A stretch of 45,246 bases of DNA, from the IMG/VR virus record IMGVR_UViG_3300015050_000992, positions 1-45,246 of that record. The stretch is one strand, 5' to 3'. How positions within the stretch are numbered: position 1 is the stretch's first letter; every line of letters starts with the position of its first letter. Below, piece after piece: positions 21,815 through 33,652 of this stretch. The notes under the pieces were generated by a model. That model made no database searches. It was given only the letters and a program-made list of their open reading frames with translations, and was not told the DNA's origin. The translations under genes were made by a program, and so were the position numbers. The stretch is from a virus. Its lineage: Duplodnaviria; Caudoviricetes.

Positions 21815-22243
21815 CTAGTTGAGCTTCAGCCCGCCTTGAACCGCCGAATAGCTGCCCACTTCCTTGCCGCTCCGGCTGTCGAAGATGCGCACCGAGTCGG
21901 CCTCGCTCGAGCCGTCGAAGTAGTAGGCGTAGACCACGCTGACGAAGCTCTGCTTCTGGTCGAACTCCGCCGCATAGAACCTGGGGCGCACCCAAACCCG
22001 GGGCAGGGTGCCGGGTGTCTCCACCTTCTGAAACACGCCTTCGCCGATCAGCTTCTCGATGAGCTTCTTCCGATCCGCCTGCATCGCGGCAGACTTGTCG
22101 ATCGTGGCGACGGGCGCCGGCCGCGATGCCGTAGTAGGCACGCTCTTTGCTCCGCCGTCCGTGCGCCCGCCGACGACCGCGCCAATAATCCCGATCACGA
22201 ACAGGATCGCGATAATAGATACCAGCCCCCTCAGACACCCCAT
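21815..22243 (-). CDS. Membrane-anchored protein in the immunity region (possible exclusion or lysogenic conversion)
   Basis: GGAGG SD; N-terminal TM helix followed by a soluble domain; lies between cI and PL. Confidence 0.7.
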   Translation of the reverse strand: MGCLRGLVSIIAILFVIGIIGAVVGGRTDGGAKSVPTTASRPAPVATIDKSAAMQADRKKLIEKLIGEGVFQKVETPGTLPRVWVRPRFYAAEFDQKQSFVSVVYAYYFDGSSEADSVRIFDSRSGKEVGSYSAVQGGLKLN

Positions 22244-22324
22244 AGTTCCTCCACAGCCGCCTAACGCGACCTAACCTCAAATAAGATCAAAGCAGGGCAG
22301 TGGGTTAGTGTCGAGTCCCGCCCT

Positions 22325-22668
22325 CTAGTTGACGCGGTCGATAAAATCGTCGGCGTTAAGCACTTGAACGCACGGTGTAAATTGCGCACTGTAGCAGTGG
22401 GCGTAGAAACCCGGACCAACAATATCGCCGACCGCCCCCAGTTGGACTGGGGCGACATCCTTGCGCGGTTTTGAGCGGGGATGCGGCTGAACACATCCGC
22501 CTGCAACGGGCGGATGGGAACGCGCTTGGCGGCGCGCTCCGAACTCGGCTTAGGCCGGGGGCGGGCGTGCTGTCCAAGGGGGAACCCCAAAAGCGTCCGG
22601 CCTGTCTTGTTGGCAGGTTTCTACCCCCCGGCTGCACCGGTGCCATGGTGTGAGCTGGTATTGACTAG
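22325..22668 (+). ncRNA. Candidate large structured ncRNA
   Basis: Long-range stems (GTAGAAACC/GGTTTCTAC, CCAACAA/TTGTTGG, TGTAGC/GCTGCA) enclose about six hairpins; mismatches are mostly G-U on the + strand. Confidence 0.6.
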
Positions 22669-22705
22669 GAATTATGTCCTATGACACAGTGAACGAAATG
22701 AGAAC
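22661..22705 (+). promoter_or_regulatory. Promoter with alphaproteobacterial LexA box
   Basis: TTGACT at 22661, possible -10 CACAGT at 22685, GAAC-GAAATGA-GAAC at 22691-22705. Confidence 0.7.
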
Positions 22706-22725
22706 ACGGTGGGGCGGGGGAGAAG

Positions 22726-22950
22726 GTGGAACCTACAACTGAAGAAGACGACAGGCGGGCGCTGTCGGAGATTATCTGTCGCCTGCCGCCTTGGGCGGTG
22801 ACCGAGTTGCTGACCGCCGCACGCGCAATTCCAGATCCTTTGCCTGTTCAAGCAGATAAGCCTGCCAATCAGGATACTCTTTCAGGCGATCATATATCGC
22901 CATCAGTTCATCGCCTTCCGGACCGAGGCCGGCGCCAGGGGCGAAATTAG
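22726..22950 (+). CDS. Putative SOS-induced antirepressor-like peptide, antisense to the cI 3' half
   Basis: GGGGGAG SD, GTG start, directly downstream of the LexA box. Confidence 0.45.
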   Translation: MEPTTEEDDRRALSEIICRLPPWAVTELLTAARAIPDPLPVQADKPANQDTLSGDHISPSVHRLPDRGRRQGRN

Positions 22951-23134
22951 GATCGATCTCCTGAATCGTTGCATTCAGTGCCCGGGCGATCTCTGGCAGT
23001 TTTTTCGTCGTGACGTTTTCCTCGCGCTCGAGCTGCGAAATGAGCTGCTGGCTAACACCAGCCTTCTTCGCGAGCCCCGTCTGTGACAGGCCCTCGCGCT
23101 CCCTAAGCCGCTTTAGATTCTCGGGTATTCCCAT
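22772..23134 (-). CDS. cI: CI-like repressor (XRE HTH, no S24 peptidase domain)
   Basis: LKRLR...GLSQ..LA..AGVSQQ.ISQLE; divergent from cro; 120 aa. Confidence 0.85.
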   Translation of the reverse strand: MGIPENLKRLREREGLSQTGLAKKAGVSQQLISQLEREENVTTKKLPEIARALNATIQEIDPNFAPGAGLGPEGDELMAIYDRLKEYPDWQAYLLEQAKDLELRVRRSATRSPPKAAGDR

Positions 23135-23143
23135 GCGGCGCAA

Positions 23144-23220
23144 TCTACCAGTTAGCTTGTAACCTGAAACACAAGTTTCCTAGTTGACGACCATGCGAGT
23201 TATCTACTAGATTGCTTGTA
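23144..23220. promoter_or_regulatory. OR: three operators and PR
   Basis: TCTACCAG-N4-CTTGTA (23144-61), an inverted copy (23170-87) and TCTACTAG-N4-CTTGTA (23203-20); TTGACG at 23184 and TAGATT at 23208. Confidence 0.85.
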
Positions 23221-23453
23221 TGGCTACGCTCAAAGACCACATCGAGAACGCTGTTAAGCACTACGGCTCGCAGGCCAAGCTTGCTGAGGCCCTTCGGTGT
23301 TCGCAGCAGCAGATTTCGTACCTCCTCAAGGCATCGAGTGTCAGCGCCGAGATGGCGAAGAAGCTCGACGAGGCTACGGGTGGCGCGGTGTCTCGCCATG
23401 ATCTTCGCCCGGATATCTACGGGCCGGCTCCTGCTCAGGGCAGGGCAGCATGA
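23220..23453 (+). CDS. cro: Cro-like regulator (YdaS family)
   Basis: GSQAKLAEAL.CSQQ.IS and T.G.VSR.DLRPD.Y motifs. Confidence 0.88.
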   Translation: MATLKDHIENAVKHYGSQAKLAEALRCSQQQISYLLKASSVSAEMAKKLDEATGGAVSRHDLRPDIYGPAPAQGRAA

Positions 23454-24091: not shown

Positions 24092-24802
24092 ATGTCCGAC
24101 ACGAAGCTCAAGGCCTACATCGACCGCGTGCTGCGCAGCCGTGAGCGTGAGGACGCGGAGAAGGCCAACACCAAGGCGATCTACGCCGAACTCAATTCCG
24201 ACGGCTACGACAAGGCGATCGTCGGCAAGGTCGTGAACCATCTGCGCAAGGACCAGGACAAGGTCCGCGAGCAGTCCGACCTGTTTGACACGTACCTCAT
24301 CGCCTACCTCGGAGCCTCGCACGTACATGCACGTGCGAGGGACACCGAGAACGAAGATCACCCAGGAGGCGAAAATGCGAACAGCGTCGGGAAAGCCGAC
24401 GCATCGCATGCCTCCCTGCGCAGCGGTAGAGAAGCGGCATCTCGCCTGGCTCATAACCAGGAAATCGCGGGTTCGAGTCCCGCCCCTGCAACCACATCCA
24501 CAGTTCCCCAGCACAACGCTGAGGAAGCGGGCGAGGGCACTACCGCGGCGTCCTCGCTCGCCGATATTCCCGAACCGGAGACAGGGGCTTCCTCCTCCCC
24601 TTCTGTCTCCGAGGCTGGCGGCGAGAGCGCTATCCCTGCGGCTGCTCTCGCCGTTCCATCCGCTGATCGTTCCAAGCCGCACCCGTGGTGCAAAGACCCC
24701 GAAGATTGCGGCGTCGAGGCAAGCTGGGATCACATGTGTTTGAGCTGTCATCGCCGCATGGAGAAGGCGCTTACCGAGCGCCCTTCATCGGTGCTGCAAT
24801 GA
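24092..24802 (+). CDS. GapR/DUF2312-like DNA-binding domain, linker and C-terminal Cys4 finger
   Basis: LKAYIDRV.R....D.....K.IYAE....GYD......V...RKD......D..DTY; C-terminal C.DP.DC...C.SC. Confidence 0.75.
   Translation: MSDTKLKAYIDRVLRSREREDAEKANTKAIYAELNSDGYDKAIVGKVVNHLRKDQDKVREQSDLFDTYLIAYLGASHVHARARDTENEDHPGGENANSVGKADASHASLRSGREAASRLAHNQEIAGSSPAPATTSTVPQHNAEEAGEGTTAASSLADIPEPETGASSSPSVSEAGGESAIPAAALAVPSADRSKPHPWCKDPEDCGVEASWDHMCLSCHRRMEKALTERPSSVLQ
24419..24494 (+). tRNA. tRNA-Met(CAT), initiator-like, embedded in a CDS
   Basis: CGCAG(C)GG TA GAGA..TCTC G CCTGG CTCATAA CCAGG AAATC GCGGG TTCGAGT CCCGC CCCTGCA ACCA; C1:A72 mismatch, A11-U24 pair, encoded CCA. Confidence 0.85.
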
Positions 24803-25104
24803 TCCGTTCCACCAACAAGCATCAGATGAAAGCCGGTACGGCGCGGGGGCGCGCGCCTGGGGTCATGTACCGGCTTACACCTGCTGCTGACTATGCGCAG
24901 GACCGCGTTCATTCGTTCGCGGTTGGCTCCGTCCAGGATCTCCTCCCCCTGACGCAGCTCCGTAGACTTGGCCGAGGGCGCATTGCTCTCGGCTCTTTTA
25001 CCGGCTCGAGGGGCGGCGCCAACCGCACCCTCGCCAGTACCAACCATACCCTTCGCGATTGCGTCCGTAAGTGCTTCGCCGAGGGTTCTAAACGTCATTT
25101 CCAA
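24748..25104 (-). CDS. Possible antisense hypothetical gene
   Basis: GGAG SD before TTG/ATG; competes with a + strand ORF at 24799..25188. Confidence 0.35.
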   Translation of the reverse strand: MEMTFRTLGEALTDAIAKGMVGTGEGAVGAAPRAGKRAESNAPSAKSTELRQGEEILDGANRERMNAVLRIVSSRCKPVHDPRRAPPRRTGFHLMLVGGTDHCSTDEGRSVSAFSMRR

Positions 25105-25150
25105 GTCTCCGACTGCCTAGGACCCGAACCTAGGCAAGGAGACCTCGTAA

Positions 25151-26377: not shown

Positions 26378-27249
26378 GCGGGAAACTGCGGGTGCTCGAC
26401 CTGTTCAGCGGCATTGGCGGCTTCAGCCTTGGGCTGGAGAGAACGGGCGGGTTTGAAACCGTGGCGTTCTGCGAACTCAAGCCACGGGCACGGGCGGTGC
26501 TGGCGAAGCATTGGCCGGACGTTCCGTGCTTCGAAGACGTTACCACATTGCGAGGCGCGGATGTCGGAACAGTTGATGTTATCTGCGGAGGATTTCCCTG
26601 TCAGGACATCTCCCTCGCCGGGTTGGGAGCGGGTTTGGACGGTGCCAGGTCCGGCCTCTGGTCCGAATACGCCCGCCTTATTGGCGAACTTCGACCCCGC
26701 TACGTCATCGTGGAGAACGTCGCAGCGCTCCTTAGTCGAGGGCTGGACCGTGTTCTCCGGGACTTGGCCGCGCTCGGGTATGATGCAGAGTGGCACTGTA
26801 TTCCAGCTTGCGCCGTTGGTGCCCCTCACCGACGCGACCGTCTCTGGATTGTGGCCTACGCCGGCCGCGATGGACACGGGGATCTCGACGCCCCTCGAGA
26901 AGATACAGGAGCGTCGGACGAGGATCAAAGCCAAGCGGATCAACGGCAACGGGTTCGGACTGAGCCTGGGCGAAGCGGTCCGCATGTGGCCGACGCCGAA
27001 CGCCGGGGATTGGAAGGCGGGGATGAGCAACGCGCCCGGCCGACAGCAATCATCCCTGCCGCGTACGGTCGGTATCGTGGAGGGAGTGACTTCGGGGAAG
27101 CGTGGAGGGCTGAACCCGACGTGGGTCGAGTGGCTCATGGGGTTCCCTCTGGAATGGACCGTCTTGAAGAACTGGGCAACGCCGTCGTCCCGCAAATCCC
27201 GGAAATCATCGGTCACGCCATCCTCGAAAGCATGAGGGCTGCAGCATGA
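26374..27249 (+). CDS. C5-cytosine DNA methyltransferase, alpha chain
   Basis: DLFSGIGG, GGFPCQD, ENV, H.RDR and LGNAVVPQ motifs; motif IX is absent from this frame. Confidence 0.95.
   Translation: MSGKLRVLDLFSGIGGFSLGLERTGGFETVAFCELKPRARAVLAKHWPDVPCFEDVTTLRGADVGTVDVICGGFPCQDISLAGLGAGLDGARSGLWSEYARLIGELRPRYVIVENVAALLSRGLDRVLRDLAALGYDAEWHCIPACAVGAPHRRDRLWIVAYAGRDGHGDLDAPREDTGASDEDQSQADQRQRVRTEPGRSGPHVADAERRGLEGGDEQRARPTAIIPAAYGRYRGGSDFGEAWRAEPDVGRVAHGVPSGMDRLEELGNAVVPQIPEIIGHAILESMRAAA
26561..27235 (+). CDS. Nested +1-frame MTase beta chain
   Basis: GAGG SD plus ATG at 26561; two WPTP repeats and a motif IX-like LNPTWVEWLMGFP..WT. Confidence 0.8.
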   Translation: MSEQLMLSAEDFPVRTSPSPGWERVWTVPGPASGPNTPALLANFDPATSSWRTSQRSLVEGWTVFSGTWPRSGMMQSGTVFQLAPLVPLTDATVSGLWPTPAAMDTGISTPLEKIQERRTRIKAKRINGNGFGLSLGEAVRMWPTPNAGDWKAGMSNAPGRQQSSLPRTVGIVEGVTSGKRGGLNPTWVEWLMGFPLEWTVLKNWATPSSRKSRKSSVTPSSKA

Positions 27250-27470
27250 CGCTCCACCCCCATAAAGACCTAGCTACCGCAGTACCCGCTGACTTTGAAC
27301 TTCCGTGGAACACAACTCGGACAATGGCCGACGTGTGGAGGGACGAGGCCCAACGTGAGCGCTACCGGAACCTCCTGATGGTTCACCGCGCCGCGGCCAA
27401 TGCGCCTCAAGTCAAGATCACGCCGGCTGGCAAGATTGCCTTCGCCGGTTACGACAGGAGCGAAGTATGA
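27246..27470 (+). CDS. Hypothetical protein
   Basis: ATGA overlaps on both sides; ends I.FAGYD. Confidence 0.6.
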   Translation: MTLHPHKDLATAVPADFELPWNTTRTMADVWRDEAQRERYRNLLMVHRAAANAPQVKITPAGKIAFAGYDRSEV

Positions 27471-31838: not shown

Positions 31839-32285
31839 ATGGCCTACAGCCCAGAAGAAGCCCAATCGATCAAGGATCGCGTCTGTCTCGAGATCACAGA
31901 GGGCAAGAGCCTTCGGTCGATATGCGAAGCTGATGATATGCCAGCCGCCGAAACAATCCGGGTCTGGCTGATTGAGGATGGCGAGTTCTCTGCGCAGTAC
32001 ACGCGTGCGCGGGAAGAGCAGGCTGACTTCTACGCCGACGAGATCATCGACATTGCGGACACGGCTAAGGACGCGAACCTGGCGAGGCTGCAGATTGATG
32101 CCCGCAAGTGGAAAGCCTCCAAGCTGCAGCCGAAGAAGTACGGCGACAAGATCGACCTCAACCACTCTGGCGCAATCGAGCACCTGACGGATGAACAGCT
32201 TGAATCCAAGCTCGCTATCCTACTCGGAAAAGCGGGAGTTGGCCTCCTTGCTGGAGGAAGTGGAACGCCGGAAGACGAGGCGTAA
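31839..32285 (+). CDS. terS: Terminase small subunit
   Basis: G.SLRSIC...MP...T...W, F..QY.RARE.QAD, IDARKW.ASKL.PKKYG (Sf6 gp1-like). Confidence 0.92.
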   Translation: MAYSPEEAQSIKDRVCLEITEGKSLRSICEADDMPAAETIRVWLIEDGEFSAQYTRAREEQADFYADEIIDIADTAKDANLARLQIDARKWKASKLQPKKYGDKIDLNHSGAIEHLTDEQLESKLAILLGKAGVGLLAGGSGTPEDEA

Positions 32286-32940
32286 GCTCTTCGACCTCTA
32301 CCCGGCAACAGGTCCGCTGCGGCGCGAACTCTATCGCAAGCACATGGAGTATTTCAGGCTCGGTGCGGAGCTTGGCGTCAACGAGCGGGCCATGATGGCT
32401 GCTAACCGTGTGGGCAAGACCTACGGCGGTGGTGGCTATGAAACCGCGCTGCACCTCACTGGACTTTACCCGGATTGGTGGGAAGGGCGGCGCTTCAACC
32501 ATCCGGTGGATTGGTGGGCTGCCGGCGATACCGCCGAGACAACGCGCGACATCATCCAGTTGTGTCTGTTGGGCCCAGTAGAGGATATGGGCACGGGCCT
32601 CATTCCAGGCGACTGCATCATCGGTGAGCCGAGCAGGCGCCGCGGTGTGGCTGACTCGGTCGACACCGTCGCGGTTCGGCACAAGAGCGGCGGCGTCAGT
32701 TCGCTTGGCCTCAAGTCCTACGATCAGGGGCGCAAGAAGTTTCAGGGCACGGCCAAGCATGGTGTGTGGCTCGATGAAGAGCCGCCGCAGGATGTCTACA
32801 CCGAATGTCTGCTGCGCTTGATGACGACGCAGGGCCTCATGATGCTCACGTTCACCCCGTTGTCCGGCATCTCGGAAGTTGTCCTTCAGTACATGAGCGA
32901 GGATCAGCTTGCGGCACTTAGTGACGGCAACGTGGGATGA
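32191..32940 (+). CDS. terL: Terminase large subunit, N-terminal ATPase part
   Basis: Walker A AANRVGKT, Walker B VWLDEE, coupling motif TFTP. Confidence 0.93.
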   Translation: MNSLNPSSLSYSEKRELASLLEEVERRKTRRKLFDLYPATGPLRRELYRKHMEYFRLGAELGVNERAMMAANRVGKTYGGGGYETALHLTGLYPDWWEGRRFNHPVDWWAAGDTAETTRDIIQLCLLGPVEDMGTGLIPGDCIIGEPSRRRGVADSVDTVAVRHKSGGVSSLGLKSYDQGRKKFQGTAKHGVWLDEEPPQDVYTECLLRLMTTQGLMMLTFTPLSGISEVVLQYMSEDQLAALSDGNVG

Positions 32941-33652
32941 TGTCCCGCACCTCAGCGCAGATCAGAAGCAACAGCTTTGGGACGCACTGCCTCCGCACGA
33001 GAAGGAAGCGCGCTCAAAGGGCATACCGGGGCTAGGCGAGGGCGCCATCTTCCCAGTCTCCGATGAGAGTATCCTCGTAGACCCGTTCGAAATACCGAAG
33101 CACTGGCGCCACATCGGTGGCCTCGACTTTGGCTACGACCATCCATTCGGTGCGGTGAAACTGGCGCACGACCTCGACACCGACAGCGTCTACGTGACGG
33201 CGGAGTATCGGGAGCGCAAGGCAACGCCGGTCATTCATGCCGCTGCGTTGCGACCGTGGGGCAGTTGGTTGCCGTGGGCATGGCCGCACGATGGTCTGCA
33301 ACACGACAAGGGCTCGGGCGAGCAACTGGCGCAGCAGTACCGCGACCAGAACCTCGACCTGCTGGCAGAGCGCGCCACGTTCGATGACGAGACGAACGGC
33401 GTTGAGGCCGGCCTGTCCGACATGCTGGTTCGAATGCAGACCAACCGGTGGAAGGTCTTCAGGACCTGCCCGCTGTGGATGGAAGAAAAGCGGCTCTATC
33501 ACCGCAAGAAGAATGATAAGGGCAAGATCGCCATCGTGGCTCTTCGCGACGATCTCATCAGCGCCTCTCGCTACGCACTGATGATGATCCGGCACGCGGA
33601 AATGAACCAGCGAGCGCTCATGCCTCAGGTTGAAACGGATTGGGTGGCATGA
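32909..33652 (+). CDS. terL: Terminase large subunit, lid and nuclease part (+1 frame)
   Basis: WDDVPHL, AR..GIP..G.G, GLDFG..HP, WPHDG and DDL.SA.RYA motifs. Confidence 0.92.
   Translation: MRHLVTATWDDVPHLSADQKQQLWDALPPHEKEARSKGIPGLGEGAIFPVSDESILVDPFEIPKHWRHIGGLDFGYDHPFGAVKLAHDLDTDSVYVTAEYRERKATPVIHAAALRPWGSWLPWAWPHDGLQHDKGSGEQLAQQYRDQNLDLLAERATFDDETNGVEAGLSDMLVRMQTNRWKVFRTCPLWMEEKRLYHRKKNDKGKIAIVALRDDLISASRYALMMIRHAEMNQRALMPQVETDWVA

What the first reader, a model, noticed from the sequence alone, without database searches (positions are those of the whole stretch)
22325..22668. Roughly 345-nt densely structured candidate ncRNA in the immunity region
Seen: the gap of about 480 bp between the membrane gene and the cI 3' end has no convincing CDS but folds by eye into a long rod capped by a multibranch head. 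Nested long-range pairs are CTAGTTGA 22325-32/TTGACTAG 22661-68, CGCACGGTG 22369-77/CATGGTGTG 22644-52, TGTAGC 22390-95/GCTGCA 22631-36, GTAGAAACC 22403-11/GGTTTCTAC 22616-24, CCAACAA 22416-22/TTGTTGG 22607-13 and GCCGAC 22427-32/GTCCGGC 22595-601. They enclose hairpins at about 22433-54, 22456-83, 22494-516, 22518-39, 22544-59 and 22578-88. Nearly all non-Watson-Crick pairs are G-U on the + strand (they would be C-A on the - strand), which suggests selection on a + strand single-stranded molecule. I do not recognise it as tRNA, tmRNA, RNase P, 6S or an intron. Inference: a lysogen-expressed large RNA acting in immunity, defence, as a protein sponge or in induction control. Its 3' end overlaps the -35 of the LexA-boxed promoter.
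Basis: partly seen in the sequence, partly recalled or inferred. Interest (0 to 1): 0.85.

Follow-up and report, generated by a model that had tools for sequence, protein, structure and literature searches.

The report
C4-type antisense RNA beside phage repressor
The folded stretch is a phage antisense-RNA cassette built like the C4 immunity RNA of phage P1, with two loops that match a target in its own leader across dozens of relatives; this copy lacks the family's second target and likely gates read-through into a small, probably DNA-damage-controlled gene facing the repressor, a layout that recurs in one unrelated prophage.

Summary
The + strand structure is real (z -5.7), but it is not one 345-nt RNA. 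It is a C4/CI-type antisense cassette: a conserved promoter (22364-92), a leader target (b1 22403-09, a1 22416-22), spacer hairpins and an ~81-nt three-way-junction RNA (22553-22633) whose loops complement that target. His three outer helices lie in promoter DNA and are not conserved. About 65 relatives were found, mostly in Hyphomicrobiales genomes and prophages. The loop words vary, yet co-vary with the leader target and with a second target before the next gene's ATG (0 of 20,000 permutations, repeated on a second set). Best Rfam hit: sRNA-Xcc1, 25.5 bits against a cut-off of 53. The window has no second target anywhere in the phage. In its place are a LexA box and a small ORF facing a repressor without a self-cleavage domain. 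An unrelated prophage (L153) repeats this layout with another code. Likely role (about 45%): gating read-through into a putative antirepressor that SOS induction reaches independently. Expression and function are untested. The scan found this RNA class before on other DNA. New variant of a known kind.

The parts
22364..22392 (+). Predicted promoter of the cassette: -35 TTGAAC (22364-69), 17 nt, -10 CACTGT (22387-92); start predicted at about 22398-99
   Evidence: TTG...N17...xAxxxT in this exact register before site 1 in 15 of 26 loci, offset by about one base in several more; also in register in L153. Not found by the E. coli consensus scan. Inferred from conservation.
22399..22422 (+). Site 1 (leader target): hairpin GGG..CCC with b1 GTAGAAA (22403-09) in its loop, then a1 CCAACAA (22416-22)
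   Evidence: Hairpin recovered by RNAalifold; 13 of 14 site-1:loop pairs show two-sided change, 93% of cells paired, 0 of 500 shuffles
22427..22552 (+). Spacer of the precursor: variable hairpins (22433-54, 22456-83, 22494-516), conserved hairpin 22518-39 with a TTGGCG loop, and 22544-59, predicted to pair with the 5' arm of P1 in the rod state
   Evidence: Alignment A2; hairpin covariation in helix 1; alternative pairing only predicted
22553..22633 (+). Predicted mature antisense RNA, three-way junction: P1 22553-61/22625-33, extended P2 with an internal loop, P3 with loop a' TTGTTGG (22607-13), junction b' TTTCTAC (22618-24)
   Evidence: Folds so on its own; 97.5% of cells paired, 10 of 34 pairs with two-sided change, 0 of 500 shuffles; sRNA-Xcc1 25.5 bits; one copy in the phage
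22634..22658 (+). Tail hairpin without a U run; in most relatives site 2 follows here, in the window it is absent
   Evidence: no terminator-like site on + here
22661..22705 (+). Second, probably LexA-repressed promoter: -35 TTGACT (22661-66), candidate -10 CACAGT (22685-90), box GAAC-N7-GAAC (22691-22705)
   Evidence: One of two such boxes in the phage; motif as in PMC8565304; both GAAC halves kept in two related contigs whose spacers differ. Hexamers read by eye.
22726..22950 (+). 74-aa ORF, putative antirepressor, overlapping the repressor's 3' end by 179 nt on the other strand
   Evidence: no Pfam or PHROG family, no homologue at E <= 10; in the close relative the changes seen are in frame (E>D twice, C>A, E>D). 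Role inferred.
22772..23134 (-). cI-type repressor, 120 aa, HTH only, no S24 self-cleavage domain
21815..22243 (-). Divergent membrane-anchored protein gene of no known family; not tied to the RNA in relatives
   Evidence: 55 proteins listed, itself included; the two metagenome homologue loci L098 and L099 have no similar DNA

Best explanation
The stretch is a C4/CI-type antisense cassette whose RNA loops complement a target in its own leader, and in this phage it likely acts as an RNA gate on read-through into the small ORF 22726, a putative antirepressor. Shown by comparison: the three-way junction, and the pairing code between loops a'/b' and site 1 (site 2 as well in most relatives). Inferred from P1 C4 and P4 CI: that RNA is cut out (RNase P in P1), accumulates in the lysogen, and pairs in trans with site 1 of new transcripts to stop them early. 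Read-through into the ORF would then happen only just after infection, before RNA builds up. Inferred: the LexA promoter lies downstream of site 1, so SOS induction would bypass the gate. This would also explain why site 2 is missing: on the ORF's ribosome site it would block induction. Odds: C4-type cassette about 0.9; this gating role about 0.45.
For: Fold and covariation. Own-versus-other word matches out of 7: b1 6.95 vs 4.34, a1 5.8 vs 4.08, b2 6.58 vs 4.21, each 0 of 20,000 (20 codes, three misaligned rows dropped). Repeated on 24 codes from loci not in the alignment, with sites located by frame only: 6.88 vs 4.34, 6.46 vs 3.29, 6.68 vs 4.27, each 0 of 20,000. Rod is the free minimum in 26 of 26 precursors, 7-22 kcal/mol below the junction fold. 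In the family the cassette usually leads the next co-oriented gene: site 2 in 24 of 27 loci, an ATG within 11 nt of the a word in 22. One relative has a P22_AR_N antirepressor 1.3 kb downstream on the same strand (L108). L153 repeats the window's layout in another prophage, with a different code and a repressor that does not align (E 2.7): site 1 only, GTTC-N7-GTTC at +129, a 68-aa ORF overlapping a convergent short repressor, and a divergent cro-like ORF. A close phage relative has 0 listed substitutions in 22398-22649 against 16 in 235 flanking bases (Fisher p 7e-6). Non-cleavable repressors with LexA-controlled small antirepressors are known (PMC3121763 abstract). CI pairing with seqA and seqC causes termination (PMC4825925 passage).
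Against: No transcript, processing or termination was observed. In P1 and P4 the downstream target is central, and whether site 1 alone can stop transcription is not shown. The ORF has no homologue, overlaps cI in antisense, and could be an antisense RNA or a spurious frame. Only two independent prophages show the layout. Other copies without site 2 lie in other settings: before HTH genes (L103, L107), before an integrase (L184), in a Mu-like prophage (L156), in a non-phage-looking region (L142). The mature RNA alone folds only at z -1.95. The 3' edge of the conserved block was chosen after seeing the data, and a recent exchange of DNA could also explain it.
Confidence: 0.5

Rival explanations
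1. Trans-acting exclusion RNA. The solo RNA is made in the lysogen to silence cassettes of other prophages or satellites that share its a/b code, and site 1 serves only its own folding and autoregulation; the LexA ORF is an unrelated neighbour.
For: It sits just past the repressor's 3' end, where lambda carries rexAB (recalled). Codes are many (34 among 39 cores), as expected of immunity groups. Relatives L144, L147 and L155 share the window's b word. The same idea was raised for Acinetobacter C4-like RNAs (PMC5320573 passage).
Against: No viral contig carries the same a'/b' loops or a matching site 2; none of the ~65 relatives has the window's a word with its b word. It does not explain why L153 has the same LexA/ORF/repressor neighbourhood.
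Confidence: 0.25
2. Cis antisense on the ORF's ribosome site through a degenerate site 2 (GGAGAAG at -7, CCTACAA 6 nt on), blocking leaky translation.
For: Ranks first among 76 starts for the window's code (11.5 of 14); same 6-nt gap as site 1; no substitution listed there in the relative.
Against: 158 of 2,000 shuffled codes reach that score, and 3 of 23 foreign codes also rank this start first. Duplex rank 611 of 9,042. L153's ORF start scores only 10. True site 2s with both words matched score 12.5-14.
Confidence: 0.1
3. Relic of a cassette that lost its cargo gene and no longer functions.
For: Site 2 and cargo are gone; such cassettes are mobile and occur in many contexts.
Against: Promoter, site 1 and both loops are intact with 7 of 7 pairing; no listed substitutions in a relative that differs on both flanks; the layout recurs in L153.
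Confidence: 0.1
4. A new large (345-nt) structural or protein-binding RNA, as first proposed.
For: Strong + strand fold; the rod is the minimum-energy state of all 26 precursors.
Against: Outer helices lie in promoter DNA and do not co-vary. Only ~22520-22640 recurs in unrelated contexts. The loop words co-vary with an external site at ribosome-binding sites.
Confidence: 0.05

Closest known systems
Phage P1/P7 C4 antisense RNA and the immI operon c4-icd-ant (Rfam C4 RF01695; c4-a1b1 motif of PMC2864571)
   Same: Three-stem RNA with two unpaired specificity segments a' and b'; targets before and, in the family, after it at a ribosome-binding site; variable code; prophage setting; one relative leads to a P22_AR_N antirepressor.
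   Different: No C4 match in the window at E <= 10. P2 is extended by an internal loop. The b site precedes the a site, whereas the c4-a1b1 figure labels a1 before b1. The window has no downstream target and no icd/ant homologue, but a LexA promoter and an orphan ORF.
sRNA-Xcc1 (Rfam RF02221)
   Same: Best Rfam hit of the window, L133 and L153; full-length alignment with the same P1, extended P2, P3 and 6-nt junction; similar length (88 nt by end mapping in PMC2996969).
   Different: 20.6-28.9 bits against a cut-off of 53. In the passages read it is treated as a trans-acting or virulence-linked sRNA; none mentions flanking self-targets.
Phage P4 CI RNA (seqA / seqC)
   Same: Processed from an untranslated precursor; pairs with sites upstream and downstream of itself; ends transcription early (PMC4825925 passage).
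   Different: No sequence match tested; the window has only the upstream site; the host is alphaproteobacterial and the phage also has a cI/cro switch.
LexA-controlled small antirepressors of non-cleavable repressors (Gifsy GfoA/GfhA, PMC3121763)
   Same: Short repressor without a cleavage domain plus a small ORF behind a LexA box.
   Different: [quoted passage not shown]

Membership tests
C4 antisense RNA (RF01695) | Score at or above the gathering cut-off (45 bits) | tested here: not met
   No C4 hit at E <= 10 in 22200-22800; 0 of 5 related virus records over the cut-off
C4 antisense RNA (RF01695) | Three stems P1-P3 with unpaired a' (P3 loop) and b' segments | tested here: met
   description in PMC5320573 section 16
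C4 antisense RNA (RF01695) | Simple P2 hairpin closed by a tetraloop | tested here: not met
   P2 is extended by an internal loop and a variable cap
C4 / P4 CI cassette design | Complementary target upstream of the RNA | tested here: met
   7 of 7 for both words in the window; covariation
C4 / P4 CI cassette design | Complementary target downstream, at the ribosome-binding site of the controlled gene | tested here: not met
   Absent in the window and in the whole phage; present in 24 of 27 first-set loci and 27 of 39 second-set cores by script
C4 / P4 CI cassette design | Controls an icd/kil and antirepressor or replication operon | tested here: inconclusive
   Window's ORF has no family; most cargo ORFs of relatives have no Pfam hit, and one locus has P22_AR_N further downstream
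C4 / P4 CI cassette design | Cut from a precursor by RNase P; represses in trans | not testable with these tools
   Needs RNA end mapping; the core begins GGC, as two Acinetobacter cases do
sRNA-Xcc1 (RF02221) | Score at or above the gathering cut-off (53 bits) | tested here: not met
   Window 25.5, L133 28.9, L153 20.6; no hit over cut-off at the element in 20 loci
sRNA-Xcc1 (RF02221) | Architecture P1, extended P2 with internal loop, P3, 6-nt junction over the full model | tested here: met
   Model positions 1-87 aligned
sRNA-Xcc1 (RF02221) | Discrete ~88-nt RNA in cells | not testable with these tools
   No expression data for this phage

The most novel reading that the evidence does not exclude
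Alphaproteobacterial prophages have, at least twice, wired a C4-type RNA gate and a LexA promoter in series onto one small antirepressor that faces a non-cleavable repressor. The RNA would time the lysis-lysogeny decision after infection and LexA would trigger induction, with the RNA's downstream target dropped so that the SOS transcript escapes it. The wider family, missed by Rfam's cut-offs, offers dozens of natural orthogonal 7+7-nt RNA codes.
Probability: 0.35. Interest if true: 0.65.

Novelty: new variant of a known kind. Interest (0 to 1): 0.45.

Why it matters
It turns an apparent new large RNA into a testable switch with named pairing sites. It adds a Hyphomicrobiales branch of C4-type RNAs that falls below every Rfam cut-off (matches in 17 of 401 and 29 of 401 genomes of two families), and it supports reading sRNA-Xcc1-like RNAs as coded antisense regulators. 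If the gating model holds, one small gene integrates an RNA timer and the SOS signal, which the searches here did not find in print. The design itself has been known since P1 and P4, and this scan has met it repeatedly, which caps the surprise.

Tried and rejected
Rfam at cut-off: only the tRNA. blastn of the region: no phage match, only short chance plasmid matches. Inverted-repeat pattern scan: 80 loci, mostly of one repeated type, none similar by blastn. The b'/P1 pattern gave 8 chance hits. Loci found through cI, the ORF or the membrane protein lacked the element; the two loci were not examined for it. Order-wide model search was insensitive: 6 of 151 genomes, 23 candidates scored per genome; the pattern found 5 of 401, one of them a chance hit. 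Trans target inside the phage: two b+a pairs, none before a start codon, like the 23 foreign codes (0-5 pairs); a perfect a word at 24812 has no b word; nothing at the methylase or cI starts, although an earlier scan note suggested looking. No trans site in 19 kb around L153. Degenerate site at ORF 22726 not significant. No viral contig with the same loops or a matching site 2. Sequencing runs: no RNA holder listed. The sRNA-Xcc1 paper PMC3256417 is not held. The search for N15 CA RNA papers returned nothing useful. tRNA, tmRNA, RNase P, 6S and intron readings: no Rfam support.

Full report
Setting. The window is a whole 45,246-base virus record with direct terminal repeats. It has an integrase, recombination genes, cI (22772-23134, -), cro (23220-23453, +), terminase, portal and head genes. 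The head protein is closest to two Rhizobium phages at 64%, and the neighbouring membrane protein has a Devosia homologue, so the host is probably in Hyphomicrobiales.

Observation. The stretch folds far better than shuffles on + (z -5.72) and less so on - (z -3.27). Only the helices 22403/22624, 22416/22613 and 22427/22601 are well populated inside the predicted transcript; 22369/22652 and 22390/22636 have probabilities of 0.11 and 0.01. No Rfam family reaches its cut-off. sRNA-Xcc1 aligns over its whole model at 22553-22641 with 25.5 bits against 53.

Finding relatives. Contigs of four public runs laid on the region showed that only ~22520-22640 recurs in unrelated contexts, and that one run holds a close relative of the phage across the region. 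A 22-letter pattern from that part gave 9 viral and 25 genome loci. By script 26 of the 34 were true elements, 8 were chance and 2 were duplicates. Named records are mostly Hyphomicrobiales (Bradyrhizobium, Mesorhizobium, Aminobacter, Afipia, Tardiphaga, Rhodoplanes, Enterovirga, Hansschlegelia); two MAGs bear other labels. Two more came (read). blastn found matches in 17 of 401 and 29 of 401 genomes of two families. The model R1 matched 42 times in 51 loci, 39 of them new. The phage has one copy.

Anatomy. On 23 aligned cores the three-way junction has 97.5% of cells paired and 10 of 34 pairs with two-sided change, 0 of 500 shuffles; the columns of the search pattern are invariant by construction. 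RNAalifold found the same fold unaided, plus small hairpins at both target sites. On 24 full elements, site 1 pairs with loops a'/b' in 93% of cells, with 13 of 14 pairs changing on both sides. The downstream b word pairs with b' in 91.7% of cells, 6 of 7 pairs changing on both sides (86 of 500 shuffles reach that pair count, 0 of 500 the cell counts). Own-versus-other permutation, one locus per code, gave 0 of 20,000 for all three comparisons (L103, L107, L131 left out as misaligned). It did so again on 29 of the 39 new cores (24 codes; ten weak or mis-registered ones left out) with sites located by frame alone. These tests do not correct for relatedness. That region does not pair preferentially with its own tail. 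In 26 of 26 precursors the free fold is the rod with site 1 on b', 7-22 kcal/mol below the junction fold (window 21.7).

What is special here. Site 2 was found in 24 of 27 first-set loci, with an ATG within 11 nt in 22; none was found in the window, L103 or L107. In the second set the script found site 1 in 37 and site 2 in 27 of 39. Of the 11 with site 1 only, four show a site 2 by eye and three are weak distant hits. The phage has no family-format site 2 anywhere. A degenerate one at ORF 22726 ranks first of 76 starts but is reached by 158 of 2,000 shuffled codes. Instead the core is followed by a LexA-type box (motif in PMC8565304, one passage) and a 74-aa ORF without homologues that overlaps a repressor lacking the S24 domain. 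The close relative shows no listed substitution in 22398-22649 against 16 in 235 flanking bases (p 7e-6). The table omits differences near contig ends, and the 3' boundary was picked after the fact. A second contig in that run keeps part of the core and the LexA promoter with another spacer and a different start. L153, in a prophage region with methylases and a DGR, has the same order of parts with another code and an unrelated repressor, and no trans site within 19 kb.

Mechanism. Shown: fold, code and layout. Taken from papers: C4 has three stems, is cut by RNase P and uses a'/b' on targets (PMC5320573, passages and section 16); it represses c4-icd-ant (PMC8198154, passages); P4 CI pairs with seqA and seqC to end transcription (PMC4825925, passages); non-cleavable repressors use LexA-controlled small antirepressors (PMC3121763, abstract and outline). 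Inferred: the mature RNA pairs with site 1 of new transcripts and limits read-through into the ORF, while the LexA promoter bypasses it. I put the identity at about 0.9 and this role at about 0.45. Rivals are exclusion of foreign cassettes (0.25), a degenerate cis target (0.1), a relic (0.1) and a large structural RNA (0.05).

Comparison with print. It works like C4/CI but is not a member of RF01695 or RF02221 by score. In PMC2864571 I saw passages and supplement rows for C4 and c4-a1b1; its Additional file 1 and two other supplements could not be read and may describe variants. sRNA-Xcc1 passages were read in PMC2996969, PMC12189769, 10.1101/2025.06.18.660453 and 10.1101/2020.03.17.996009; none mentions self-targets. 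The founding paper PMC3256417 is not held. Searches for 'c4 antisense' with 'alphaproteobacteria' and with 'LexA' gave no paper; 'sRNA-Xcc1' with 'antirepressor' gave only the APSE paper. The library lacks most subscription journals. Earlier notes of this scan report the same class on other DNA; no look-alike of this sequence or of L110 is indexed.

Verdict. A real, selected RNA cassette; a new variant of a known kind; the target-less, LexA-coupled layout beside cI is the interesting part and rests on two prophages. Interest 0.45.

Noticed in passing
window 24803-25150 (+): Second hairpin-rich gap in the rightward early operon (z -3.84, 0 of 100 shuffles), no Rfam family; it opens with a perfect a word (24812) but has no b word.
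   Followed up: partly
window 21721, 21744, 23171, 23206: Four ACWAG-N4-CTWGT palindromes, two at each early promoter: likely cI/Cro operators. A weaker copy may lie at 22664-77 over the LexA promoter.
   Followed up: partly
window 23134 (-) and 23220 (+): cI and cro both look leaderless, with a -10-like hexamer about 7 nt before the ATG; promoter hit at 23184-23213.
   Followed up: no
window 24420-24490 (+): tRNA gene with a CAT anticodon, lying inside the 3' part of ORF 24092-24802, whose real length may be shorter.
   Followed up: no
window 32191-32940 and 32909-33652 (+): Terminase large subunit appears in two overlapping frames: frameshift, split gene or assembly error.
   Followed up: no
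window 27297-27311 (+): The only other GAAC-N7-GAAC box, inside ORF 27246-27470; may be chance.
   Followed up: no
A4 (cI homologues P0059-P0074): Short repressors share a C-terminal P-K-A-x-G tail, the part that overlaps ORF 22726 in antisense; a hint that the overlap is conserved.
   Followed up: no
A2 columns 100-225: Spacer hairpins in many relatives repeat one loop (TTGGCG, CTGGCA, CTGCAA) two to three times; possibly protein-binding sites.
   Followed up: no
L139 1501-1617 (-): Distant member with a U-rich leader terminator-like stretch and both target sites; a possible bridge to the gammaproteobacterial C4/sRNA-Xcc1 leaders (the likeness is recalled).
   Followed up: partly
L196 12899-16518: Diversity-generating retroelement (target, Avd, reverse transcriptase) in the prophage that carries L153.
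   Followed up: no
L184 1480-1587, L103, L107, L156, L142: Other copies without site 2, before an integrase, before HTH genes, in a Mu-like prophage and next to quorum-sensing-like genes.
   Followed up: partly
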